NCBI GenBank assembly: GCA_964016885.1
Contig: CAXHJY010001334.1
Location: forward strand, 72-64,071
Direction of reading: 5' to 3'
Length of the DNA: 64,000 bases
Origin: Eledone cirrhosa
Lineage: Eukaryota
Positions 4,998-59,800 of the stretch are shown in pieces. Every line of letters begins with the position of its first letter. Position 1 is the stretch's first letter. The position numbers and the translations under genes were made by a program. The notes beneath the pieces are model-generated. The model ran no database searches, was not told the DNA's origin, and saw only the letters and a list, made by a program, of their open reading frames with translations.

Positions 4998-7900
4998 ACT
5001 TTGAATAACTTTGAATAACTTTGAAATCGTTTTGGCCAGTATTGGCCCAGGCCATGTCTAACTTAATAGCACCACCTGGCGAAGTCTTTCAATTCAGGAT
5101 TTGGGCACCATGGCCCATTCGAGAAGAGAATTACTGTTTGCGGAGACATATCCGGGTGTGGGTGGTTTGTCCGGGATTACTTGGAGGAATTTGTCCAAAG
5201 ACTTCTTGAATTTTGTGTGGTCAGTTTCTGTTTTGACGTGTCCTGGTGTGATGTTGAAGAGAGCAGGGCCGATTGAGGTGAAATAATTGTGCCGTATTGT
5301 TGTTATGAGTTGCGATTTAGATTTTTGAATGGGACGGATAGCACGGGGCCCAAGCCTTGGGTGTATCTTGAAGGCGATGCCAACATCATTTGGGCAGTGA
5401 TGATGGAACATTTTCCACATCATGCAGATAATATAACGCTCACGGCGACGTTGGAGTGAGTAAAGTTTCAGGTTTTCCAATCGACCCCAGTAGTCAAGGT
5501 CTGACATGCCATCTATCTTTTTCGTGATTGCCCTTTGAGGAGCTTCAAGTTTCATGATACTTTGTTTCGTGTGGGGAGACCACAGTGGACAACAGTATTC
5601 AAGGTGTGGTCGGGCGAAAGTAGAGAAGAGAAGGATAATGGTGCGGGAATCTCTCGACTGGAAGGTTCTGAGGATCCAGGAACACATTCTGCGGGCCATG
5701 TCAACTTTGCTGCTTATATGCGTGGTCCAGCTTATGTTGCTGTCCACGGTTACTCCCAAGTCTCTGATGTTGTTAGATGCCACGAGAGTTTCCCCGGAGG
5801 GAAGGGAGTACGGGAGTTTCAGAGCATCCTCTTTTCCAAAGTGGATCAGTTCGAATTTGTCTTCGTTCAGTAACATGTTGTTCTTTTCTGCCCATTGGGT
5901 AACAGCCAGTAGGTCTGACTGAAGGCTTATCCGGTCATCCACGCCATTGATGACCTTTTGGAGCTTGGAATCATCAGCGAAAATTTTAATGTTGCTGTGT
6001 TTGATGATGTCAGTGATGTCATTAATATAGATGATGAAGAGAAGTGGGCCCAACACAGTGCCTTGTGGGACTCCACTACTGACTTTGGCTGGGCTTGATT
6101 TGACTCCCTCAACTACAACATGTTGGGTTCTGTTTGACAGGAAGCTCTTGATCCACTGCAGCAGCTTTCCAGTGACACCAATATTGGACAGCTTTCTCAG
6201 TAGAATGTTATGATCAACCCTGTCAAAGGCCTTGCTGAAATCAAGGTAGATAACATCAGTGTTGGAACCCTCTCCCAAGGCTCTCAAAATGTCATCAAAG
6301 TGATGCAGTAGTTGCGTCAGGCAATCCCTTCCATTACGGAATCCATGCTGGTTGGAGTTCAGCATATTGTTACTCTCAAGGAAGTGGGTCATTCGCGATC
6401 TCACCACTCGCTCAAATACCTTAATGATATGAGAGGTGAGTGAGAGGACGGTAATTCACGGCAAGGGATTTGTTTCCCTTTTTGAAAACTGGGACAACAG
6501 ACTGGGATAGAAGGTTTTCTGGCACATATCCAGCATCCAGTGAGTTCCGCCACAGATTGGCAAGAGGAGAAGCAAGTTGGTGTTGACACGCCTTCAAGAC
6601 ACAAGCAGGGAACCTATCGGGACCTACTGCTGAATTATGCTTGATTTCCTTTATTGCCGCCAAGACATCAGGGGCGCCAAACGTTATGTCCGATAAGGTG
6701 TAATGGGGAGTAACATCGCCGATACAGCCCAGATCGGCCATATCAGGATTGCTGAAAACAGAGCAGTATTGTTTCTGCAGTATCTCACCCATGGTTTTAG
6801 CATTGTCCTTGAAGAGTGCCATTTTCATCAATTAGAGGGCCAACAGTAGAGCCAGTGATTTTGTGTTTTTTTGCAAATGAAAAGAACACTTTGGGATTGA
6901 GTTTGATCTTCTCAATGGCCCAGGCCTCTTCAGCTCTTCTCTGATTGTTGATGAGGGACATTATGTTGTTTTGGAGGTTATGTTTTTTAATCTCTAGTGA
7001 TGAAATGGCAGTCAAGTTGATGTGTTGCTGCTGACAGTATTTCAGATTGTTGATTTTTTTTTGTTCGTTCTCTTAATTTTTCTGATGAGCGTTTTTCTAT
7101 TTCTAGGGATTCTGCTCTTAGATTTGTTTATAGTTCTTAATGGGGTGTGTTTAGCACATATGTTTGTAACAGTGTCCACAAATGTCTGCCAGGACTTTTT
7201 GATGTTAGTGGGTGTATGAGTGTGCGTGAAGGACCAGTCGACATGTGCAAGATCATGACTGATCGCTTCCCAGTTTGCATTGTGGAAATCCATAGCGTCA
7301 AACGGATGGACAGGAGAAATGACATTGGGTTTGTATATTGGACGGTGGAATCTCAGATCACAGAGAACCATGTCATGATCAGAGAGTAGAGTTTTCTCCA
7401 CTGCAATATTGTGGATATTGTCAGTGTGATTGCTGAAAATTAAGTCTAGGACGTTTTTGTGGCACCTCGTTGGTTCGAGCACTAGTTGGGATAGGAAGAA
7501 ATCATCCATGAAGTCAAGAAGCGATTCCACAGCTTCCCTGTCAGAGGTTGAGGCAGAAGAACCTGGTGGCAGGGTGTTTGTGGACCAGTCAACTCCGGGG
7601 AGGTTGAAGTCCCCCATCATTAAGATGTTGTCAGGGTGACACTCTTGGATGAAACACTTTATGCTGTTGAGGCATTCCTTGAAGCATGGTACAGGCGTTT
7701 GGGGTGGCCTATAGAGCCCAACTACTAATAGGTTGTTGGTTTGACTGAATACAGTGACTGCCTCACAGTATCCATTAGTGAATATGTTCATAGCCTCTGT
7801 TGAGAAAGAATTATGGACATAAATGGCAGTTCCGCCCTTTCTTCTGCCAGCGCGATCAGCACGGATGGCTTTGAAATTTTTCACTTTCACCTCGGCTTCC

Positions 7901-8237
7901 AAGTGGAGGTTACTGAGATGGGTTTCAGTGAGGACAAAGAAAGGGATGTGGTTTGGATGGACATCAATCCAGTCCTCCAGGAATTTGATTTTCCATTTTT
8001 GAGTATTGGTGGTAGGGCTGATGCCTTGGGCGTTAAGCAAAAATGTAGAGGCGAGAGTGGATGGTTTTAATTGTTTTGGTGTGTTGTTAATTTGTTTGTT
8101 TGTTAATGGCAGCAATGGGAGTTTGTGCAGTGGGGTGATAGTGGAGGGTGGTGCTGGGTGATGGCTCGAATGTTTTTTTCCAGTTCTTTTGCCAGATTCA
8201 TTATGGCTAAAAAAGAGGAAGTTTCCTGTTTAGAAGA
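4997..8237 (-). mobile_element. CR1/L2-group non-LTR retrotransposon (APE endonuclease + RT), frameshifted
   Basis: ORF 7042-8115 has APE motifs (LNAQG, LTETHL, GLYRPP, GDFNLP, LDLIF, SDH). ORF 5094-6407 has RT motifs ([30 protein letters not shown]). Linker pieces 6421-7015 lie in shifted frames. The 3' tail is tandem ATTCAAAGTT (4997-5025) and both ends abut (TA)n. Confidence 0.93.
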
Positions 8238-10470: not shown

Positions 10471-11753
10471 CTACTCTTTTACTCTTTTACCTGTTTCAGC
10501 CATCCGGCTGAGGCCATGCTGGGGCACCGCCCTTGTTGCTACACATCTTATCTCCATTCTGTATAGGTTGGCCACTGATGTAGGAGGGAGTTTGTTGCTG
10601 CTGCCCTTAGGTTTCCCTCGTGTCTTGCTGTGGGCTCATCCGGGATCCTGGATAACAAGGTGTCGAGATGTTTCTTAAAGACATCCACCTCCACGTCATG
10701 CAAGTCTCGCAGATGCCTCGGCAGCCTGTTGAAGAGTTGAGGGCCCTTGAATCCCAGGCTATTGCAATACCTGCTCCTTATTCTAGATGTGGAAGACGGG
10801 ACCTTTGGCACCACACAGTGATGTCCTGTTCGACGGTTGGTCCAGCTCCCAATGCCAAAGTTTGGTGCTAGTCCCTCCAGGATTTTCCACATGTAGATCA
10901 CTGCGTATCTCTCCCGTCTTCGCTCCAAGGAGTAGAGGTTCAGTTCCTTTAGCCTCTCCCAGTAGCTTGTCTCCCTCATCTTGGCAATCCTCTTGGTGTA
11001 GCTTCGCTGGATTGCCTCAAGCTCCGTGGTTAGTTTGACACTATGGGGTGACCACAGCTGGGAGCAGTAGTCCAGGTGGCTTTGGACAAAAGTCCTCCAC
11101 AGTGTCAACATGGTGTCTCGATCTCTTGTAAGGAAAGTCCTCAAGATCCAGCCAGCGAATCGTCTACATGTTGTCGCCACCTTCATGATGTGTGAAGAAA
11201 AAGATGCATCATCGCTCATGTCTATGCCCAGGTCTCGTATCGATTTTGACACAGGGATATCGGTCCCTCCTGGTCCTGTGTAGCTGTGTTCCGCTATATT
11301 TGTGTTTGTGTTTGCAGGTTTGTATTGTAGGGCTTGGAATTTGCCAGCATTAAACTGCATGTTGTTTTCTTCCGCCCATCTGTATATGGCATCCAGGTCC
11401 TGCTGTAAGAGGGCAGCGTCAGCTGGGTTTTTGATTGCCTGTGCTACCTTAGTGTCATCAGCATAGCTAGTGAGGGATGTTGTTGCATGCACCACAGAGG
11501 GCATGTCCGAGAGAGCCACCAAAAACAGTAGTGGTCCCAGGACTGTCCCCTGGGGCACCCCACTTGCTATCGGTGTTTCCCTCGAGAGGGCCCCATTTGC
11601 TGCGACTGCCTGGCTTCTGTCCCTTAGGAAGCCATGCAGCCACTCACCTACTTTTCCAGTTATGCCGAGTCCGTGTAGTTTGTGACATATCATTCCGTGG
11701 TCGACCTTGTCAAAGGCCTTCGCAAAGTCAAGATATATCACATCTACATGTGA
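10471..11753 (-). mobile_element. 5'-truncated CR1/L2-group LINE (RT and C-terminus)
   Basis: Open frame with [27 protein letters not shown] and YADD, stop at 10548. The 3' UTR reads GGCGGTGCCCCAGCATGGCC... and ends in GTAAAAGA repeats. The 5' end is truncated into microsatellite. Confidence 0.93.
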
Positions 11754-11758
11754 TACAT

Positions 11759-11791
<33 letters not shown>

Positions 11792-11796
11792 AATAC

Positions 11797-11827
<31 letters not shown>

Positions 11828-11850
11828 AATACATATATATATATATATAA

Positions 11851-11911
<61 letters not shown>

Positions 11912-12236
11912 CATCAGTTTAGCGGACGCTTATTATAACGCCGCTTTGTTCGTTTGTAAACAAACTGAACAGCCTGAATATGCAAATTAGGCTGCTCAGC
12001 CGTTAATTTTCATAAGGAAAGTATATACTTTCGAACGTTCAACTATCTGGCGGATGGGTATACGGTGCTGATGATAGCTAACAAGCTTGAAACTAGTACA
12101 TCGTTCCTGTGTCAGTGTTGAACAAAAAGGTGACGTGGTTGCCTTAACACCATATGGCATAAATTCAGGCTGTTCAGTTTGTTTACAAACGAACAAAGCG
12201 GAGTTATAATAAGCGGCCGCTAAACTGATGCGTGCA

Positions 12237-12276
<40 letters not shown>

Positions 12277-12747
12277 TGCTACTGTACATCTGTATACATA
12301 TATGTATGTACGTATACATACATACTTACATTTAAGTAAGTGCCATACTAAGAGTGAGAAATGAAATTTCGTTTTCATTTTATTTCAACCTATCGTTTTC
12401 GGTATGCCTGACCGATTTAACTCACTCAATATGCAAATTTGGCTGCTCAACCGTTAATTTTCATAAGGAAAGTATATACTTTCGAACGTTCGAACACCGT
12501 ATGGCATAAATTCAGGCTGTTCAGTTTGTTTACAAACGAACAAAGCGGCGTTATAATAAGCGTCCGCTAAACTGATGCGTGCATATATGTATGTGTACCT
12601 GTATGTATATATATATATATATATATATATGCATGCTACTGTACGTCTGTATACATATATGTATGTACGTATACATACATACTTACATTTAAGTAAGTGC
12701 CATACTAAGAGTGAGAAATGAAATTTCGTTTTCATTTTATTTCAACC
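11912..12747 (+). mobile_element. Non-autonomous Penelope-type/retrozyme-like element: partial tandem (451 bp period) plus 68 bp 5' inverted segment
   Basis: Unit start AATATGCAAATT at 11977 and 12428. 11912-11979 is the reverse complement of 12510-12577. Contains a hammerhead and is flanked by TA tracts. Confidence 0.8.
12062..12104 (+). ncRNA. Minimal type I hammerhead ribozyme
   Basis: ACGGTG-CTGATGA-t-AGCT-aaca-AGCT-t-GAAA-CTAG-TA-CATCGT: stem I 6 bp, stem II 4 bp, palindromic minimal stem III, predicted cleavage after GUA at 12098. Confidence 0.8.
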
Positions 12748-13765: not shown

Positions 13766-14285
13766 ATATTGTTATATTTGGGGAGGGTCATATTTGCGTA
13801 ATATTGCCAGAATTAATAACAGAACACACTCACTGTTTGGTTGGTTTTCGCTTCTCGCTGTCTTTTATATATATATATCTGCGATCTAACTTACTCGGTC
13901 CTCAATGTTGCCATTGACTGACCGGCGGTCAAAAATAATACAGATACAATATAGACAAACACATATATATATAGTTTACATAAATCTTTCGTTGCACATC
14001 TGCAACATCGTCAGTGGTGTTATATTCATTGTTCCTCCTGTTGTGTTGTATGTCTACGCCATTTTTTTGTTCAGTCTGTCTATATATTTATTTATTTATT
14101 TGCTTGTTTGTTTATCTTATTTTATTTTGTCTTCTTTGCGCATGCGTTTGCGTGTGTGTATAGTGTTATGTGTGATGTGTGACTAGTGTGGATAGTGTTG
14201 TGTCTGCTGGGTGACTGGTGTGTGTTTATGTGCTTGTGTATGTATTTATTTATCTTATTTTATTTAATTTAATTTACTTATTTAT

Positions 14286-15092
14286 TTATACTTCTCTTAG
14301 GTCAGTGTTGTTTGTTTGGGTGTTGTTGTTGTTCCACTCATTCTTTCTGTTTAGCTTTGGTCTTCTAATTTCTATTTCACTGGCCTCTCTGATTTGCCTA
14401 TCTGCTGGGTCATTCCTATGTTTAGATATTATTCTAATTTCTATGTTGTCTATGTTACCGTCATGATGTTGTCTAGCATGTTCGTATAGTACTGACCCGT
14501 TTTTTCGTCCTTTTAGTTCCCCCCAGTGTTGGTCTATCCTTTCACCTATGCTACGAGCTGTCTCACCTATGTATGTTGTTGTCGTGTTTCTGCAAGTACC
14601 CTCTGTACATCTTATGCTATAGACTACGTTTCTAGTTTTACAGTTTATCCGGGGGTTCACCTTACATATGATACATTTCCTATTGGTACAGTGGGTTTTC
14701 TTAAAAGGGTAGGTTTTGCTGATCAGGGATTTTATGGTGGTTCCTGGCTTTTCTACCACCTTTATTTTTAAGTGGGTCTTTCTCAGGGCCTTTCTACACT
14801 GGTTAGCTAATTTCCCTCCAGGGGTGGCGTCCACAAACATGACACTCTGATATCTCTGGTTGTCGTACCATGATGTGGCCTTCCCTATCTTATGTCTAGC
14901 CCTATCTAAGCTATTCCATGATTTGCTCCTGTATAGTGGGCAAATTCCTTTCATGTCCAGTTCTATGAGGGTCTTATACTTTTCCATGGCTCCTTCGTAT
15001 ACTCTGACTCTGTCTCTTTGGTTGTAGCCAGAGAACTGCATGCGGTTGATGAAGTGTTGGATGTGTCCTTCCATTTCTGTTGGGTCGCACAT
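14286..15092 (-). pseudogene. Inverted duplicate of the Penelope-like thumb/GIY-YIG coding region
   Basis: The 268 aa ORF is identical to the C-terminus of the plus-strand ORF. Confidence 0.9.
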
Positions 15093-15094
15093 GC

Positions 15095-16448
15095 AATAGG
15101 GGCTAGTATCAAAACTACCCTAAAGGGCCACATATTTAAGTTCAATGAGAAAATCTACACCCAAAATGAGGGAGCAGCCATCGGCGTCAGCATAGCTGGC
15201 GATGTTGCCAACCTTTTCATGGTATGGTGGGAAAGGAGACTTAAAGATCTCCTTAATGAAAGCTCCATAGACCTCATCATGTACTCTCGTTATGTAGACG
15301 ATATCAATATAGTTATAAGAACACCCCCACTAGAGAGCACTAACAAGTTTGATTTAGAACGTAGCACGATGGAAAGCATCCAGCAGATAGCTAATTCCAT
15401 ACACCAGAGTATAACTGTAACTATAGACTTCCCTTCCAAACACCCTAACAATAGACTACCTGTATTAGACACAGAACTCTGGATTAACACTATAGACGAG
15501 AGAGCCCAAATTCTCCACTCACACTATGCTAAACCCATGGCCTCCAAATACCTGATACTCAAAAACTCAGCAATGTCCAGTAGTGCTAAGTTTAATATTC
15601 TGATCGCAGATTTGGTACGAGTGATGAAGAATGTGTCCAGCATGTGCGACCCAACAGAAATGGAAGGACACATCCAACACTTCATCAACCGCATGCAGTT
15701 CTCTGGCTACAACCAAAGAGACAGAGTCAGAGTATACGAAGGAGCCATGGAAAAGTATAAGACCCTCATAGAACTGGACATGAAAGGAATTTGCCCACTA
15801 TACAGGAGCAAATCATGGAATAGCTTAGATAGGGCTAGACATAAGATAGGGAAGGCCACATCATGGTACGACAACCAGAGATATCAGAGTGTCATGTTTG
15901 TGGACGCCACCCCTGGAGGGAAATTAGCTAACCAGTGTAGAAAGGCCCTGAGAAAGACCCACTTAAAAATAAAGGTGGTAGAAAAGCCAGGAACCACCAT
16001 AAAATCCCTGATCAGCAAAACCTACCCTTTTAAGAAAACCCACTGTACCAATAGGAAATGTATCATATGTAAGGTGAACCCCCGGATAAACTGTAAAACT
16101 AGAAACGTAGTCTATAGCATAAGATGTACAGAGGGTACTTGCAGAAACACGACAACAACATACATAGGTGAGACAGCTCGTAGCATAGGTGAAAGGATAG
16201 ACCAACACTGGGGGGAACTAAAAGGACGAAAAAACGGGTCAGTACTATACGAACATGCTAGACAACATCATGACGGTAACATAGACAACATAGAAATTAG
16301 AATAATATCTAAACATAGGAATGACCCAGCAGATAGGCAAATCAGAGAGGCCAGTGAAATAGAAATTAGAAGACCAAAGCTAAACAGAAAGAATGAGTGG
16401 AACAACAACAACACCCAAACAAACAACACTGACCTAAGAGAAGTATAA
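15095..16448 (+). CDS. Penelope-like RT (C-terminal part) + Cys linker + GIY-YIG endonuclease, 5'-truncated but uninterrupted
   Basis: QNEGAAIG, SRYVDD, LPVLD, Cys linker CTNRKCIIC..C, NVVYSIRC...YIGETAR..ERI..H, EH...HH, RQIREA, LNRKNEW. Confidence 0.9.
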
Positions 16449-16709
16449 ATAAATAAGTAAATTAAATTAAATAAAATAAGATAAATAAATACATACACAA
16501 GCACATAAACACACACCAGTCACCCAGCAGACACAACACTATCCACACTAGTCACACATCACACATAACACTATACACACACGCAAACGCATGCGCAAAG
16601 AAGACAAAATAAAATAAGATAAACAAACAAGCAAATAAATAAATAAATATATAGACAGACTGAACAAAAAAAATGGCGTAGACATACAACACAACAGGAG
16701 GAACAATGA

Positions 16710-16767
16710 ATATAACACCACTGACGATGTTGCAGATGTGCAACGAAAGATTTATGTAAACTATATA
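16710..16767 (+). ncRNA. Putative minimal hammerhead in the Penelope 3' region (mirror copy on minus at ~13968-14025)
   Basis: CTGACGA-t-GTTGCA-gatg-TGCAAC-GAAA-GATT-TA: clean 6 bp stem II; stem I is weak (CA/TG, then an internal loop). Confidence 0.55.
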
Positions 16768-17023
16768 TATATGTGTTTGTCTATATTGTATCTGTATTAT
16801 TTTGACCGCCGGTCAGTCAATGGCAACATTGAGGACCGAGTAAGTTAGATCGCAGATATATATATATAAAAGACAGCGAGAAGCGAAAACCAACCAAACA
16901 GTGAGTGTGTTCTGTTATTAATTCTGGCAATATTACGCAAATATGACCCTCCCCAAATATAACAATATCTGTTTCGACACACGATTTCATATAAAAAACC
17001 TCGCAAAACTAATTCATCGCCGC

Positions 17024-17054
<31 letters not shown>

Positions 17055-19165: not shown

Positions 19166-44978
<25,813 letters not shown>

Positions 44979-46148: not shown

Positions 46149-49100
46149 CAGTGATTCTCAACCAGTGTGCTGCGGCACACTGGTGTGCTGCAAGATCTTC
46201 CTAAGTGTGCCACGAAATTTTGAACGGCACACTAAGAAAATGCGAAAAACCATGTGATCCCAATTGAGTATTCAGTTTGTGGTGTAACATTTTGCACTAC
46301 ATAGCTTTGTTCACTTAGGGATGAGCGAAATGTTTCCAAATGTCGCAATGCTAAAAATTCTATACCTTTTATTGTTTCGTTTGTCATTAGTATTGATCAT
46401 ATGAATGGATATTGGTCAATGCTCGTCTTAAGGTGGGACTTCCCTGGAAGAAAAAAAATTATTATATCATGCATCTTTTTTTCACTTTTCTGGTAGAATC
46501 TACCTCTAAAACTGAGACAAATGATATATTTCTTTTTCATATAGTCCTAATTTTTGCTGAGATATGACCAAAAATGGTTGAAAAATAGCGTAATTTTCAG
46601 TTCTTTTGAGAAAATCCAAATAAGCTATGAAGATGATTTTTACATTTTTAGAACTAGAAAACTAGTCATTGTATAATAACAAGCCTTTTTTTGATATTTT
46701 GGGAAAAAAACTTTTTATCCTCATTAGTGTGCTGGAGAGTAAAAGAATTGAAAACAAAAATCACAATTTATTTGGATAAAAGCAACTATAACATTTTTTC
46801 AAGGCAGAATTTTTAAAAAAGGCTCTGTCCCGATGAAGCTATTATTATATGGAAGGTCTCTTCAAAACTTCAAGCAAATCTATCGAGTAGATTTTCTGGA
46901 AAGAGCTCTGAAATTTTGAGAAGTACCCATTTTGAGAAAATTGCCTGTAAAAATTAAAAACACAAATGTTAGCTTCTACCTCTGTTTCGGAACAATCTAT
47001 GGATGATTCCGAGGATTTAGCTCAGAATTCTCTGGTTCATGCTACTAATGAGTCCATGTTAGCTTCCCTTTACATATATTTTGTCTTGCTTCATCTCTAT
47101 ATGGCATAATTTCCTAATTTTCTGGTGGATTATCCCATCGGAAGGGTGAGTTTGGCTGCCATGTTTACATTGTGATGGGGGAAGGCGAGTCACGTCATGT
47201 GCTGGACCAATCAGCGGGCGCCATTCGCCGAGTTTAGCCGAAAAGGAGGCTCGATGTGCATTTGCGTCGATTTTCTGGCTTTTCATCTTATGCTAATGAG
47301 GGTATAGTAGAGGTCTGTAGCTGTCTACTGGTGTGTCGAACATAGCAAAAATGGCGGATTTACGATGTGTTGTCAGTGCTCAAACATTGACTATTTTTGT
47401 GCGTAATACATCGAAATTTGATGATTTCCAGCTAGAAATGGTCTCATAAAACATTAATTTTAGGTAGGAAGACATATTTTTATTGTTTTGCTGTGTTTGT
47501 ACACGAAAGAGAAGACACTGTCATCTCAATATAGACAATCCAACCCCAAACTGTCATATTGATATTTCATGACCCTTCACAATGGATAAATATTTGAAAA
47601 GGAAAGATATTAGTGACGAGTCTAAGTCCAGAGGCGAACAACCATCAACCTCTATTGTCAAAAAGAGAAACATTAATCGACAATATTGTGAAAATTATTT
47701 GAAATTTGGATTTTATTGGTCTGGTGACGTTAACAAACCAAGTCCATCATGTGTAGTGTGCGGTGAAACAATGTCAAATGAATCCATGGTACCAAGTAAG
47801 TTAGAAACACATTTTAATTCAAAACATTCATCTCTGAAAGATAAAAAGCTTGATTACTTTCAAAGACTGTTAGAGCAGAAATCAAAACAGCGAAGTTATT
47901 TTGAAAAAATAATGACCATGTCTGAACGAGCCCAACTATCGTCAATTCAGGTGGCTGAAATAATAGCATTCAAATCTAAATTCCATACGCTTGCTGAGTC
48001 AGTCGTCCTACTAGCTAGCAAAAAGATGGTAAAATCCATGTTTGGTGAAAAGACTGAGAAGGAATTGAACAATATCCCGATTTCAAATGATCCAATACGT
48101 AGAAAAATCCTAGATATATCGAAAAATATTGAAGACAATGTTCAGAAAAAGCTTAAGAATTCTAATTTTGCTTTAACCGTGGATGAATCCAATGACATCA
48201 GTAATAAAAGTCAATTGCTTGCATTTTACGTTTTATTGACGAGAATGAAATAATCAATCAATTTTTGTTCTGTAAAGAAATGTCCACAACTACAAGAGGT
48301 CAAGATATTTTTGATTTGATAACAGGCTACCTGAAAGAAATGAATTTGTCTTGGAAGTCCTGTGTTGGCATTTGCACCGATGGAGCCCCATGTATGACAG
48401 GCTGTATGAAAAGATTTGTATCCTTCGTAGAAAAAGAAAATCCAAACCTCATTCATATTCATTGCTTTCTACATAGAGAAGTTCTTGTTTCAAAAATATC
48501 GCAGGAAGATTTAAAGGTTGTGTTACATCAAGTTGTTGGAATGGTCAATTATATAAAAAGTAGGCCATTGAAGTCACGATTATTTGAACAACTGTGCAAA
48601 GAAATGGACTCTTAGCAAGTTAACACTGAGGTTCGCTGGCTGTCGAAAGGCAAAATACTAAATCATGTTCACGGACTGCACAAGGAATTACTATAATTTT
48701 TTCTCCAGGAAAAGCAGGAGAAATTCTGTGAATACCTTAGTTGCGAATTTTGGATATCTAAAATGGAATACCTAACAGAAATATTTAGTGAACTAAATAA
48801 AACAAACAGTAGTATGCAATGTAAAAACGAAAATATTCTCACTTCAACAGACAAGTAAGTTGACCTCAAAAAGAAAATTGTATTTTGGAAAAAAAGAGCA
48901 ATCACTGGCAATCTTGATATGTTCCCTTTATTGTATTAGAGAAATGATCCCTATTGTGGTTACTCATCTGACAGCCCTGGACGAAAGCATCAACAATTAC
49001 TTTCTGTCATTAAAGACAGAAAAGTATGATTGGATTAGAGATCCTTTCATAAATAATTCTTCCAACATTGAACTTGAGTTACCCTTTCTAGTGACCGAGG

Positions 49101-52200: not shown

Positions 52201-52204
52201 GCCT

Positions 52205-55662
<3,458 letters not shown>

Positions 55663-55963
55663 AAGATTTCTAATAAGAATGAAACGCGTAGGTTACTTCC
55701 CTTGCTTTTATCGAGAATCTAATTGTAATACGTGACGTATTCTATTCTATAGCGATTAGGTCTTCAAAATGTTTATTATAAACATACAGAATATTTTCGA
55801 ATATTCTATGTCTATCTTCACATATATATCGCTATTTCAGAGCATTTAATCCAATTTCTAATTTCTGCCGGACCGGCAACCGCTCTTTCAAACCAGTTCC
55901 TGTACACAGCTAAGTATTCTATAAGTCTCTAGCTGTGTCATTCTCGATAAAAGCACTGGATAT

Positions 55964-56006
55964 GTAGTCCTGAAGATTTCTAATAAGAATGAAACGCGTA
56001 GATTAC
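55964..56006 (+). ncRNA. Minimal type I hammerhead ribozyme
   Basis: GTAGTC-CTGAAGA-t-TTCT-aata-AGAA-t-GAAA-CGCG-TA-GATTAC; cleavage predicted after 56000. Confidence 0.88.
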
Positions 56007-56273
56007 TTCCCTTGCTTTTATCGAGAATCTAATTGTAATACGTGACGTATTCTATTCTATAGCGATTAGGTCTTCAAAATGTTTATTATAAACATACAGA
56101 ATATTTTCGAATATTCTATGTCTATCTTCACATATATATCGCTATTTCAGAGCATTTAATCCAATTTCTAATTTCTGCCGGACCGGCAACCGCTCTTTCA
56201 AACCAGTTCCTGTACACAGCTAAGTATTCTATAAGTCTCTAGCTGTGTCATTCTCGATAAAAGCACTGGATAT

Positions 56274-56316
56274 GTAGTCCTGAAGATTTCTAATAAGAAT
56301 GAAACGCGTAGGTTAC
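56274..56316 (+). ncRNA. Minimal type I hammerhead ribozyme
   Basis: GTAGTC-CTGAAGA...GAAA-CGCG-TA-GGTTAC; cleavage predicted after 56310. Confidence 0.88.
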
Positions 56317-56583
56317 TTCCCTTGCTTTTATCGAGAATCTAATTGTAATACGTGACGTATTCTATTCTATAGCGATTAGGTCTTCAAAATGTTTATTATA
56401 AACATACAGAATATTTTCGAATATTCTATGTCTATCTTCACATATATATCGCTATTTCAGAGCATTTAATCCAATTTCTAATTTCTGCCGGACCGGCAAC
56501 CGCTCTTTCAAACCAGTTCCTGTACACAGCTAAGTATTCTATAAGTCTCTAGCTGTGTCATTCTCGATAAAAGCACTGGATAT

Positions 56584-56626
56584 GTAATCCTGAAGATTTC
56601 TAATAAGAATGAAACGCGTAGGTTAC
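56584..56626 (+). ncRNA. Minimal type I hammerhead ribozyme
   Basis: GTAATC-CTGAAGA...GAAA-CGCG-TA-GGTTAC; cleavage predicted after 56620. Confidence 0.88.
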
Positions 56627-56856
56627 TTCCCTTGCTTTTATCGAGAATCTAATTGTAATACGTGACGTATTCTATTCTATAGCGATTAGGTCTTCAAAAT
56701 GTTTATTATAAACATACAGAATATTTTCGAATATTCTATGTCTATCTTCATATATATATATATATATATATAAGTATACGTAAATCAGTAGAGTTTCAGC
56801 AGATCCTGTATAGGGTGAAAGCAGAAATTTTTTGATTAATCATTAATCTGTACCAA

Positions 56857-56893
<37 letters not shown>

Positions 56894-59800
56894 GTATTTG
56901 AGAGAGTGAAGTTACTGGTTGTTTAGCCTCTAAATTTTCGGTTAGTTTTCCAAACAAAGATCCACTACAAGTTTGTTGGCTTTCAATTGATGTTGTTGAT
57001 AATGTTATTGTTTATTCCCAAACCAGGCCCGATTGAACAGATCTATGACGAAAGATAACTACTACATACCCCTCACTTTTATGTCTTTATCCTGGACTAC
57101 CAATATCTTCTCTGCCTTTAAAAGCGAAAATGTTAATTGAGAGAGATTTGGTCACTCTTTATAGTAGGCCAAGTACACCCGTAGAATCTGACCGGAGGCT
57201 TTAATTGTGGTAAGAAACTCTCATAAGAGCTGGACAACAGAAGGTCTTCAGGCGAGAATCCTCCATCAAGCAAGTGTTTCAGCTGTTAATATATATATAT
57301 ATATATATATAGTGGTAAGAAAATCTTAGAAAAACTGGAAAGGTCTTTAGAGAAGAACCACATATCCTCAAGCAAGTGTTTCGGCCTTTAACAACTCCAA
57401 ATATGTTGGTCTCGCGCTTGTATCAAGCATTCTGACATAGCACCCCAATGCTCTTAGCGGGATATGATCTCTGAGGTATACATTTGACTAGTTGGACACC
57501 TGGTCGCTACACTTAACTATGGCACTAACTATATACTTCAAATCATACAGTTTTGGCCAGTCAGTCTAAAGTCTGGACAACATTTGGACGGCTGCTTTTC
57601 TGGAAAAATCATTTATCTAGGAATTACACCATAATTAATATACTGTGTTTATATGGCTTTAGTAACAGAATTGTATAAAATTGTGAACGCTACGCCACAC
57701 TTAGCACTTGGTTGTCTAACCAACACGTCACCACCACCACCTCATTATTACCTCACCACCACCACATCACCAGCATCACCTCATCACCACCTCATGATCA
57801 CCTCACAACCACCTCACCATCCGCATCAGTTCAACAACAGTTCACCACCACCACCAACGTTACCTCACTAGCACCACTTCATCATCACCACCACAGACAG
57901 AAATAGTAGTAGTAGCACCAGCTCCACCTATCCTCCACCTCCTCTATATCGTTTGACCAAACTGATAGGGAAGATTCACTGTTGCGTGTGCAAGATCTGA
58001 TAAAATTAATTATTTATTCTATCGCAAATATGAAGAGAATGACTTGTTGTTGTATAGTCGTGTCCATCCCTGAATCTGTAGTCTGGTAAAACACCATCTA
58101 ACCATCAACAACTTGTCGCTTTTCTGCTATTGTCATTTTATTTCAATGTGCAGACCCCCTCCACTATTTTTAAAGGCAATTGTTCGAGATTGACCCCGCA
58201 GATGTTTTCCCAGCGGCAAGGAGGCAATCCATATACCGGGATCTAACTTGGGAGTTAACATAATTAAGTTTATTCATATCTAGGAATATGTGTCTATGTA
58301 AGACTCTCGGCACTCTGTGTTCAAAATCCGTCCAGGTCAACTTTACCATTCATTCTTTGGAGGTCGATAAAAAAAGTACCAGTCTGGTACTGGGATCAAT
58401 TCTTTCTCTATATCTCTTTCTCATTTCTCCTCTTCTACTTTCTCTCTCTTTCTCTGGAAGAAACTGGTCCCGTTCAGACCTGAAGAGATGTGCTCCGCCA
58501 TGTTTAAAATGCCTACGATTCCACCAGGGGTATATCTGGGTAATAAGTATATATGTGGAATAAAAGAATATCATAAAGAGTCGAAATAAAAAGTTCCTTT
58601 AGATAATTCACAAATAGTTTAAGAAAATTGTTAGATAAACGTGTTATTAATGTTTATAGGTGCATAGCGCCCTCTGTGTTGGCATATTATATCATCAAGG
58701 GGTTCAACGTAGTTCGCTTATTGACTGAAAAAAGTATCAGCAATCGGCTTTGTTCTCTAGCGATTGAACTAAGAGACATTCCATTTATAAGGGGTTTTTA
58801 CTCGATTTTCAAACCTATTTATAGCAACCGACTATATTTAGTTATTCTTCTGCGCTTGAGCATATTAATGTTCCAAATGAATTTAATAATCTCCCAGCAT
58901 TTCGCAAGTTAGAAATTTCTAATTTTGCATACGCTAGAACGTCGGATAGAATGCTTTGCGGCATTCGTTCCGACTCTGCTCTCAGTTCAAATCTCACCGA
59001 GATCAACTTTGCCTTTCATCATTTGGAGGTCGATAAAAAATACCAGTCTATTACTGGGGTCGATTCTTCCTCTATATCTCTTTATCACTTCCTCTCTCTC
59101 TTTCTAACTTTCTCTAGAAAAAAATCTGCTGTATTCAGACCTGGAGAGAGAGGATAGGATCCACCAGGCATAAAATGTCCAAGAAACGCTGTCTGCCACT
59201 ACGGCGCTCCTACGATTCCACTAGGAGCTACGAGACCATACCATATTTGTGTAAGAACTGCCCCCACAAACACTCGCATATACCATGTGCTGGCTATTTT
59301 ATTCATTAACTTAATCCGCTGAAATGTCGGAATAACACAACACCACAGAACACAACTGTATCCCAGCACGCCGCGACATACCACACAACACTACATCACA
59401 CTACACTACACATCATACCACGCCACACAGCACACCACTCCACACCACAGCACACACGCCACACCACACAGCACAGCAAACCATACCACACCACTCAACA
59501 AAACACCATCCACACGACACCGCACCTCAATACACGACACCGCAGCCCGCCTCAGGACCTTTCTCTCTCTCTCCCCTTATGAGACCTCCCTCACAAACAC
59601 AGGAAATTAAAATATCACATTGGTCAGTTTGTTATAAGGGGCTGTAGCTTGATGTTCGGAAGCTGTGTGTTTGTGTGCATGGCTGTGTACGACTGTGTAT
59701 ATGACTGTAAGTGTATGAATGTACGTATGTATGTATTCATGCGTGGGTGTACGTGCGTGCATGTATGTGTGCATGTATGTGTGTGCATTTATGTGTTTGT

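What the first reader, a model, noticed from the sequence alone, without database searches (positions are those of the whole stretch)
55663..56750. Tandem 310 nt hammerhead array: candidate retrozyme / circular-RNA replicon
Seen: about 3.5 head-to-tail copies of a non-coding 310 bp unit inside (TA)n. Three complete minimal hammerheads (CUGAAGA, 4 bp stem II, GAAA, palindromic CGCG stem III, GUA cleavage triplet) and one 5'-truncated one are spaced exactly one unit apart. The monomer ends pair through stem I and a perfect 16 bp helix (TGCTTTTATCGAGAAT / ATTCTCGATAAAAGCA). The interior has further helices: AGAATATT-TTCG-AATATTCT, ATAGCGAT/ATCGCTAT, TGCCGG/CCGGCA and ACACAGCTA/TAGCTGTGT. Established: metazoan non-LTR retrozymes are tandem repeats of a few hundred nt with type I hammerheads. 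They self-cleave into monomers that circularise, and minimal hammerheads with a palindromic stem III work as dimers. Inference: this locus is an integrated rolling-circle reverse transcript of a 310 nt circRNA, and possibly still a source of it. The array starts and ends at different points in the unit, as expected for a circular template.
Basis: partly seen in the sequence, partly recalled or inferred. Interest (0 to 1): 0.9.

Follow-up and report, generated by a model that had tools for sequence, protein, structure and literature searches.

The report
Penelope-copied hammerhead retrozyme, rolling-circle insertions
This is one copy of a young family of 310-base ribozyme-motif repeats found at over a thousand (TA)n sites; fixed ends, paired inverted arms and uniform units within each insertion suggest that a Penelope-type enzyme likely copies one small RNA circle round and round into the genome.

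Summary
Observation confirmed: 3.5 copies of a 310-nt unit with three complete type I hammerhead motifs, inside (TA)n. It belongs to a young family of about 17,000 units. Genome-wide, 1,386 and 1,119 junctions to (TA)n sit at two fixed unit positions about 35 nt apart (A and B), and none at the hammerhead cut site.

Of 112 mapped insertions, 94 have two inverted arms. In 88, one arm ends at A and the other at B; no A+A or B+B pair was scored (one possible 13-nt exception).

Both arms share a haplotype in 48 of 51 insertions (shuffle mean 4.2), and private variants are fixed across up to 22 units. This points to a single-unit template, likely a circle copied by rolling-circle target-primed reverse transcription. 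Sister families covary the hammerhead and the closing helix.

Not shown: cleavage, expression, the circle itself, or the partner PLE. The window's own array is one-armed and slightly mosaic. Verdict: a non-LTR retrozyme whose genomic copies give unusually direct evidence for its proposed mechanism.

The parts
55663..56750 (+). One-armed retrozyme insertion: 3.51 head-to-tail 310-nt units, 5'-truncated at unit position 283, ending at start site A (position 130; position 1 = 56001)
55663..55690 (+). 5'-truncated hammerhead remnant (no CUG, no stem I 5' strand)
55964..56006 (+). Type I hammerhead motif 1: stem I 55964-55969/56001-56006, core 55970-55976, stem II with U.U base 55977-55990, palindromic stem III ACGCGU 55994-55999, predicted cut after 56000
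56274..56316 (+). Type I hammerhead motif 2, predicted cut after 56310
56584..56626 (+). Type I hammerhead motif 3, predicted cut after 56620
56001..56310 (+). Predicted releasable monomer 1; ends closed by stem I and the 16-bp helix 56013-56028/56250-56265
56311..56620 (+). Predicted releasable monomer 2 (commonest haplotype of this subfamily); helix 56323-56338/56560-56575
56408..56427 (+). UUCG hairpin just upstream of site A; GCAA-capped with compensatory changes in the sister family
56441..56475 (+). 'Tail' between start site A (unit position about 130) and start site B (about 165), shown in an internal unit; absent from this array's 3' end
52204..55662 (.). (TA/TATG)n microsatellite, left flank
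56751..56772 (.). (TA)n right flank, the target at the primed end

Best explanation
The array is one of over a thousand near-identical, non-coding hammerhead-motif repeat insertions that end at two fixed unit positions in (TA)n, and it was likely made when a Penelope-like reverse transcriptase/GIY-YIG enzyme copied one unit-length, likely circular, RNA several times round. Steps. (1, predicted) A tandem transcript self-cleaves through paired hammerheads joined by the palindromic stem III, releasing 310-nt monomers. (2, inferred from published retrozymes) The monomers are ligated into circles. (3, inferred) A PLE protein, probably a dimer, binds the RNA near unit positions 130-210 and nicks both strands of a (TA)n target about 12-14 nt apart. 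(4, pattern shown, enzymology inferred) One nick primes at site A and the other at site B. (5, inferred) Each cDNA runs round the template, continuing with about 0.8 probability per round. (6, pattern shown) The two cDNA ends join centrally, mostly over 0-5 nt of overlap, giving two inverted arms. One-armed copies such as this window's likely lost or never completed the second arm. Some older arrays later grew by local duplication.
For: Fixed ends: 1,386 site-A and 1,119 site-B junctions to (TA)n genome-wide (reversed-pattern controls 12 and 0); 0 at the cut site with 1 mismatch allowed. Architecture: 94 of 112 insertions are two-armed, all head-to-head; 88 are A+B (49 and 39 by side), none scored A+A or B+B. 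This holds for 36 of 36 A/B-classified insertions not selected by a junction, and the partner arm is A in 52 of 52 selected by B. The sister family (about 68% identical) uses the same two sites, with B 12 nt after CAGAGC in both. Autonomous RT+GIY-YIG PLEs of this genome show the same two-arm, tail and (TA)n layout, and one family has a hammerhead of the same build. Target duplications of 13 and 14 bp are visible in L142 and L133. Single-unit template: both arms share a haplotype in 48 of 51 (shuffle mean 4.2, max 12 of 10,000); 31 haplotypes in 82 insertions, 22 of them singletons; private variants are fixed in all units of both arms (L157, 20 units; L195, 22; L201, 20; L207, 17). Template continuous through the cut site: 48 of 52 A arms and 48 of 52 B arms cross it, and 6 of 184 5' ends lie within 5 nt of it against 5.9 expected. 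Arm lengths decay roughly geometrically. RNA stage: insertion-wide changes are A>G 16 and T>C 1 of 39, against 12 and 19 of 134 unit-private changes (Fisher p 1.8e-4). Structure: 23 of 42 pairs change on both sides across 12 sequences, including C3-G8 to U3-A8. A two-ribozyme transcript is predicted to form the inter-copy stem III (P 0.94-0.95).
Against: Cleavage, transcript and circle are not observed. No partner PLE with sequence similarity to the unit was found among 80 PLE-protein or GIY-YIG loci, three full-length loci of the window's PLE family or 13 variant-motif hits. The window's own array is mosaic at family-diagnostic stem I sites. Three of 51 two-armed insertions have discordant arms, and L191 switches haplotype inside an arm. 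L045 may be a B+B case with a 13-nt second arm below my threshold. Six long arrays show higher-order repeats, so part of array length is post-insertion. Homogeneous source arrays would also give homogeneous daughters from linear transcripts. Most flanks are pure (TA)n, and L064 shows no duplication. In vitro, the anole PLE used uncleaved RNA and showed no strand difference in start site (PMC11167929). Only 1 of 9 Xenopus retrozyme dimers cleaved in vitro (10.64898/2026.07.22.740005). The A>G count is polarised by frequency, is not phylogenetically independent (8 distinct sites against 1, p 0.014), and could reflect selection for G.U pairs rather than editing.
Confidence: 0.72

Rival explanations
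1. Same PLE-driven integration, but the template is an uncleaved linear multimer transcribed from an already homogeneous array; circles are rare or only a by-product.
For: The anole PLE starts internally on uncleaved RNA and does not need hammerhead cleavage (PMC11167929). The weak U.U stem II and a stem III not predicted in a lone motif would let multimers persist. The window's array and L166 and L191 are mosaic.
Against: A new variant cannot become fixed in 17-22 units of both arms without a one-unit step, and 22 of 31 haplotypes are singletons. I saw no ordered mosaic shared between loci in the per-unit lists (read by eye, not tested over all loci).
Confidence: 0.16
2. The template is a cleaved linear monomer, and the reverse transcriptase jumps end to end repeatedly on the same molecule.
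For: It also gives one haplotype per insertion. Stem I and the 16-bp helix hold the monomer ends together.
Against: Unit junctions at the cut site are clean, apart from one heritable 1-nt insertion haplotype. 5' ends do not pile up at the cut site (6 of 184 against 5.9).
Confidence: 0.06
3. A DNA-level satellite or local tandem duplication of a dead PLE fragment, homogenised by gene conversion or unequal crossing-over.
For: Higher-order periodic variants in L038, L042, L043, L046, L051 and L066 show local expansion. L148 is a segmental tandem of a whole insertion.
Against: Over a thousand dispersed insertions with fixed 3' ends, the A+B rule, target duplications, strand-biased changes and covarying RNA structure.
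Confidence: 0.03
4. A viroid-like circular RNA that also replicates RNA-to-RNA and is only occasionally captured in the genome.
For: Many haplotypes with RNA-type changes. Mussel retrozyme circles did not match genomic copies, and the authors raised editing or RNA replication (PMC7229834).
Against: The minus strand of the window array has no hammerhead. Thousands of genomic templates suffice to explain the diversity.
Confidence: 0.03

Closest known systems
Metazoan non-LTR retrozymes (Cervera and de la Pena 2020, PMC7229834; results, discussion and part of methods read)
   Same: Non-coding tandem repeats of 150-450 bp, low GC, one type I hammerhead per unit, self-paired circular fold. The axolotl HHR_Amex2 also has a U.U at the base of stem II and works better as a dimer.
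   Different: In the parts read, the paper proposes circle-templated copying by a PLE or LINE but reports no fixed 3' ends, inverted two-armed insertions, (TA)n targeting or per-insertion haplotype data. There the RNA was shown; here it is not.
EN+ Penelope-like elements (Craig et al. 2021, PMC8557442, passages; Frangieh et al. 2024, PMC11167929, main text)
   Same: 5' truncation, inverted second copy, 30-40 bp tail often at only one end, microsatellite or AT-rich targets, two internal RT start sites bounding the tail, both strands nicked and extended, predicted dimer, hammerhead upstream of the start sites.
   Different: No ORF here; the unit is 310 nt; arms contain up to 24 units. The A+B pairing is strict in the genome, whereas the in vitro assay saw no strand difference. 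Nonautonomous head-to-tail Chlamys elements share 3' sequence with partners; no such partner was found here.
Xenopus retrozymes as non-autonomous PLE derivatives (Li et al. 2026, 10.64898/2026.07.22.740005; parts 1-3 of 5 read)
   Same: Co-occurrence with PLEs; unit laid out like a pLTR end.
   Different: Their evidence is pLTR homology and co-distribution, and they favour local tandem amplification after PLE insertion. Here there is no homology to a sampled PLE, but the insertions themselves indicate that multi-unit arrays are made at integration.
LINE-1 twin priming (recalled, no call)
   Same: Head-to-head inverted arms joined over short microhomology.
   Different: L1 arms copy non-overlapping parts of one linear RNA from a poly(A) end and a variable internal site. 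Here both arms start at two fixed sites and copy the same unit repeatedly.

Membership tests
Non-LTR retrozyme | Head-to-tail repeats of 150-450 bp, GC under 50%, non-coding | tested here: met
   310 bp, GC 34%, longest frame 59 aa
Non-LTR retrozyme | Type I hammerhead motif in at least two consecutive units | tested here: met
   Three complete motifs; stems and C3-G8 covary in sister families; below the Rfam threshold
Non-LTR retrozyme | Dispersed multicopy family without LTRs | tested here: met
   14,242 + 2,580 hammerhead cores; flanks are (TA)n. PBS and PPT were not searched
Non-LTR retrozyme | Self-cleavage of the RNA | not testable with these tools
   Only predicted: dimer stem III P 0.94-0.95
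Non-LTR retrozyme | Expressed as linear and circular monomer RNA | not testable with these tools
   No RNA holder listed; genomic inference only
Non-LTR retrozyme | Target duplication longer than 4 bp when present | tested here: inconclusive
   13-14 bp in 2 of 88 (L142, L133), 9-11 bp in L058, none in L064, rest uninformative (TA)n
PLE-mobilised non-autonomous element | 30-40 bp tail at one end only | tested here: met
   Sites A and B about 35 nt apart (26-35 given TA microhomology); A+B in 88 of 94 two-armed insertions
PLE-mobilised non-autonomous element | 5' truncation with inverted second copy; microsatellite target | tested here: met
   94 of 112 head-to-head, none tail-to-tail; (TA)n follows most A and B ends
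PLE-mobilised non-autonomous element | Sequence shared with the pLTR or 3' end of an autonomous PLE | tested here: inconclusive
   None in the loci sampled; these are a small part of 10,597 GIY-YIG candidates
Autonomous PLE | RT plus GIY-YIG ORF | tested here: not met
   No ORF in the unit; arrays abut (TA)n or unrelated flanks
Viroid-like replicon | RNA-RNA replication; often ribozymes in both polarities | tested here: inconclusive
   No minus-strand hammerhead in the array; replication itself is untestable here

The most novel reading that the evidence does not exclude
Each insertion is a single-molecule record: a PLE dimer primes both strands of a (TA)n target at two different fixed sites on one A-to-I-edited circular RNA and rolls round it up to about 24 times per arm. 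This would explain the PLE 'tail at one end' and inverted repeats, and would show RNA edits being written into the germline as new retrozyme lineages.
Probability: 0.4. Interest if true: 0.88.

Novelty: new variant of a known kind. Interest (0 to 1): 0.72.

Why it matters
The retrozyme life cycle (circle, then reverse transcription by an unknown retroelement, then tandem copies) has been proposed; the papers I read give no genomic or biochemical demonstration of the copying step. How PLEs make inverted repeats with a tail on one end is named as an open problem in PMC8557442. This family gives over a thousand very young insertions that follow simple rules: two start sites, one per arm; one haplotype per insertion; geometric arm lengths. 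These can be tested genome-wide now, and in the existing in vitro PLE assay with a 310-nt circle. The sister family marks the likely protein-binding region (unit positions about 60-210). Five searches of the held library on this question and one on cephalopods showed no listing describing two-armed, fixed-end or haplotype evidence for retrozymes. Subscription journals, Repbase entries and supplements were not seen, so prior notice cannot be excluded.

Tried and rejected
Rfam: only (TA)n artefact hits to microRNA models over 54000-58500 and sub-threshold HH9 hits on the array.

Expression: no RNA holder listed. Four of six listed runs were laid; all are contigs of unrecorded kind. Three hold a single 340-nt contig (one unit plus overlap) of the commonest genomic haplotype, which tandem DNA would also give, so they were not used as evidence.

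Partner search: the window's own PLE family (about 1,210-aa ORF, tail about 57 nt) has no nucleotide similarity beyond TA-rich noise. None was found in 50 GIY-YIG loci, 30 PLE-protein loci or the rest of the window; the two real hits were neighbouring retrozyme relatives. Two exclusion patterns returned 13 hits: retrozyme junctions or mutated copies. L269 joins an old PLE fragment to a retrozyme 5' end and was read as an insertion with flank loss, not a chimera.

The automatic target-duplication score flagged 27 of 88 insertions, mostly (TA)n artefacts; only cases judged by eye are cited.

Random circular permutation of ends was rejected. A coding role was rejected (59 aa at most; frame not kept in the sister family). 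An intronic position was rejected as unlikely: the last ABC-transporter exon motif seen is near 43.6 kb, about 12 kb upstream.

Dropped before counting: 4 segments under 100 nt and 3 of 4 segmental copies in L148. Earlier scan findings: none returned.

Full report
Observation. The array is real. It is exactly periodic at 310 nt from 55663 to 56750, with three differences between neighbouring units, flanked by about 3.4 kb of (TA/TATG)n on the left and 22 nt of (TA)n on the right. Three complete type I hammerhead motifs predict cuts after 56000, 56310 and 56620; a fourth is 5'-truncated. Stem II carries a U.U at its base. That variant is reported for axolotl HHR_Amex2 (PMC7229834) and noted as the best-tolerated mismatch in PMC3088659 (passages). 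Rfam gives only sub-threshold HH9 hits. The circular monomer is more stable than all 200 shuffles (z -4.0). In a lone motif stem III is not predicted; in a two-motif transcript the palindromes pair between copies (P 0.94-0.95), the dimer arrangement described in PMC4209133 (part 1 of 4 read). Unit positions below count from 56001 = 1.

Family. The unit has 273 matches at the 40 of 346 candidates scored. Exact patterns find 14,242 cores with U7 and 2,580 with this window's A7 core; reversed controls find none. I mapped the window, 36 loci, 15 and 58 chosen by a site-B junction. After dropping 4 short segments and 3 segmental duplicates, this gave 112 insertions. The first set lies about 0.2% from one unit, so the family is very young.

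Ends. 3' ends fall at two positions, A (about 125-139, blurred by the unit's own TATATA) and B (about 160-172), nearly always followed by (TA)n. Genome-wide there are 1,386 A and 1,119 B junctions and none at the hammerhead cut site. Of 112 insertions, 94 have two arms, always head-to-head. In 88, one arm ends at A and the other at B (49 and 39 by side); 5 have one arm ending elsewhere and 1 ran off the fetched stretch. Among the 36 not chosen by a junction, all are A+B. Eighteen scored as one-armed, including this window. Of these, L183 has a tiny B arm opposite its A arm, L045 may be a B+B exception with a 13-nt arm, and two were cut by the fetch edge. Central junctions overlap by 0-5 nt in 58 of 92, and 5' ends are close to uniform (Rayleigh p 0.03; 6 of 184 near the cut site against 5.9 expected). 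Two insertions in imperfect targets show 13-14 bp duplications, one is compatible, one is not, and the rest are uninformative.

What made it. A 30-40 bp tail at one end, an inverted truncated copy and microsatellite targets are the PLE signature (PMC8557442). The tail is the stretch between two internal reverse-transcription start sites of an enzyme that nicks and extends both strands and is predicted to be a dimer (PMC11167929). Autonomous PLEs in this genome follow the same layout. One lies in this window at 13770-17024, with inverted arms and a tail of about 57 nt, from a family with dozens of identical ORFs. Another RT+GIY-YIG family carries a hammerhead with the same U.U base and palindromic stem III. 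None sampled shares sequence with the unit, so the partner is unidentified.

Template. Arms nearly always cross the cut site (48 of 52 A arms and 48 of 52 B arms), so the template is continuous there: a circle or an uncleaved multimer. Insertions are internally uniform: 353 of 420 full units equal their locus's commonest unit. They differ from each other: 31 haplotypes in 82 insertions, 22 seen once. Both arms match in 48 of 51, against a shuffle mean of 4.2. Variants seen in only one sampled insertion are fixed across 17-22 units of both arms, including a 2-nt deletion. Such fixation needs a one-unit step, most simply rolling-circle copying of a monomer circle. Arm lengths fall off at 0.62-0.89 per round (median 1,052 nt, longest at least 7,492). 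Insertion-wide changes are strand-biased (A>G 16, T>C 1 of 39) and unit-private ones are not (12 and 19 of 134; p 1.8e-4). That fits A-to-I editing of the RNA or selection for G.U pairs; either needs an RNA stage. The count is polarised by frequency and is not independent (8 sites against 1, p 0.014).

Against this reading. I sampled under a tenth of the insertions, so singletons may have source arrays. Three insertions have discordant arms, and one switches haplotype mid-arm. Six long arrays show later local duplication. The window's own array mixes alleles at stem I positions 2 and 277, from gene conversion, a change during copying or an assembly error; it is therefore a poor example of the rule it led to. 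Published in vitro results show that hammerhead cleavage is dispensable for one PLE and undetected in 8 of 9 predicted Xenopus retrozymes.

Structure under selection. A sister family of about 320 nt, about 68% identical, and a third variant keep positions about 60-210 and replace the hammerhead and closing-helix sequences. Across 12 sequences (4 of this family, 8 sisters), 92.8% of cells pair and 23 of 42 pairs change on both sides, including 9 of 16 in the closing helix and C3-G8 to U3-A8; slid controls give 1-5 pairs. These are two or three lineages, not 12 independent ones, and the structure was drawn from the window's sequence. U3-A8 is a known natural core covariation. The sister uses the same two end sites.

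Verdict. A non-LTR retrozyme by every sequence feature testable here, mobilised by PLE-type machinery (about 0.92), likely from a unit-length circle (about 0.75). The element class is known. The strict two-site, two-arm rule and the per-insertion uniformity were not found in the library searches; the supplements of PMC7229834 (model figure S9) and of the bioRxiv preprint were not seen and may bear on this.

Noticed in passing
window 13770-17024: 5'-truncated two-armed PLE in (TA)n (RT and GIY-YIG parts), from a very young family with a full ORF of about 1,210 aa containing a long Asn-rich stretch; tail about 57 nt inside the ORF start; degenerate hammerhead-like core in the pLTR.
   Followed up: partly
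window 11912-12730: Another small repeat in (TA)n with about 70-bp inverted ends, a roughly 440-nt repeat and a hammerhead at 12068 of the same build (U.U base, 4-bp stem II, ACUAGU palindrome); possibly a second retrozyme family.
   Followed up: no
window 40247-40318: Solo type I hammerhead-like motif (CUGAUGA, long interrupted stem II, 11-bp stem I) near a short (TA)n run.
   Followed up: no
L199:3816-4619, L142:8130-8963, L258-L267: Older sister retrozyme family (about 320 nt), many copies with a U3-A8 core, GUC cut triplet and a longer palindromic stem III; same two end sites.
   Followed up: yes
L238-L249: A PLE family with RT and GIY-YIG whose pLTR has a hammerhead-like motif with a UUGAAAA core.
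   Followed up: no
L166, L191, L038: Mosaic insertions: one switches haplotype after two units of an arm; in two others the unit nearest the centre shares a variant with the opposite arm.
   Followed up: partly
window about 20160-43650: Multi-exon ABC transporter gene (ABCC-like by recalled motifs) on the + strand.
   Followed up: partly
window 5094-8229, 10548-11918, 35802-38868, 47573-48615: LINE-type RT/endonuclease ORFs (two on the minus strand, one on the plus strand) and a transposase-like fragment; names from recalled motifs, not from a family search.
   Followed up: no
L148 (G000:C28): A whole two-armed insertion with its flanks repeated four times at about 4.1 kb spacing.
   Followed up: partly
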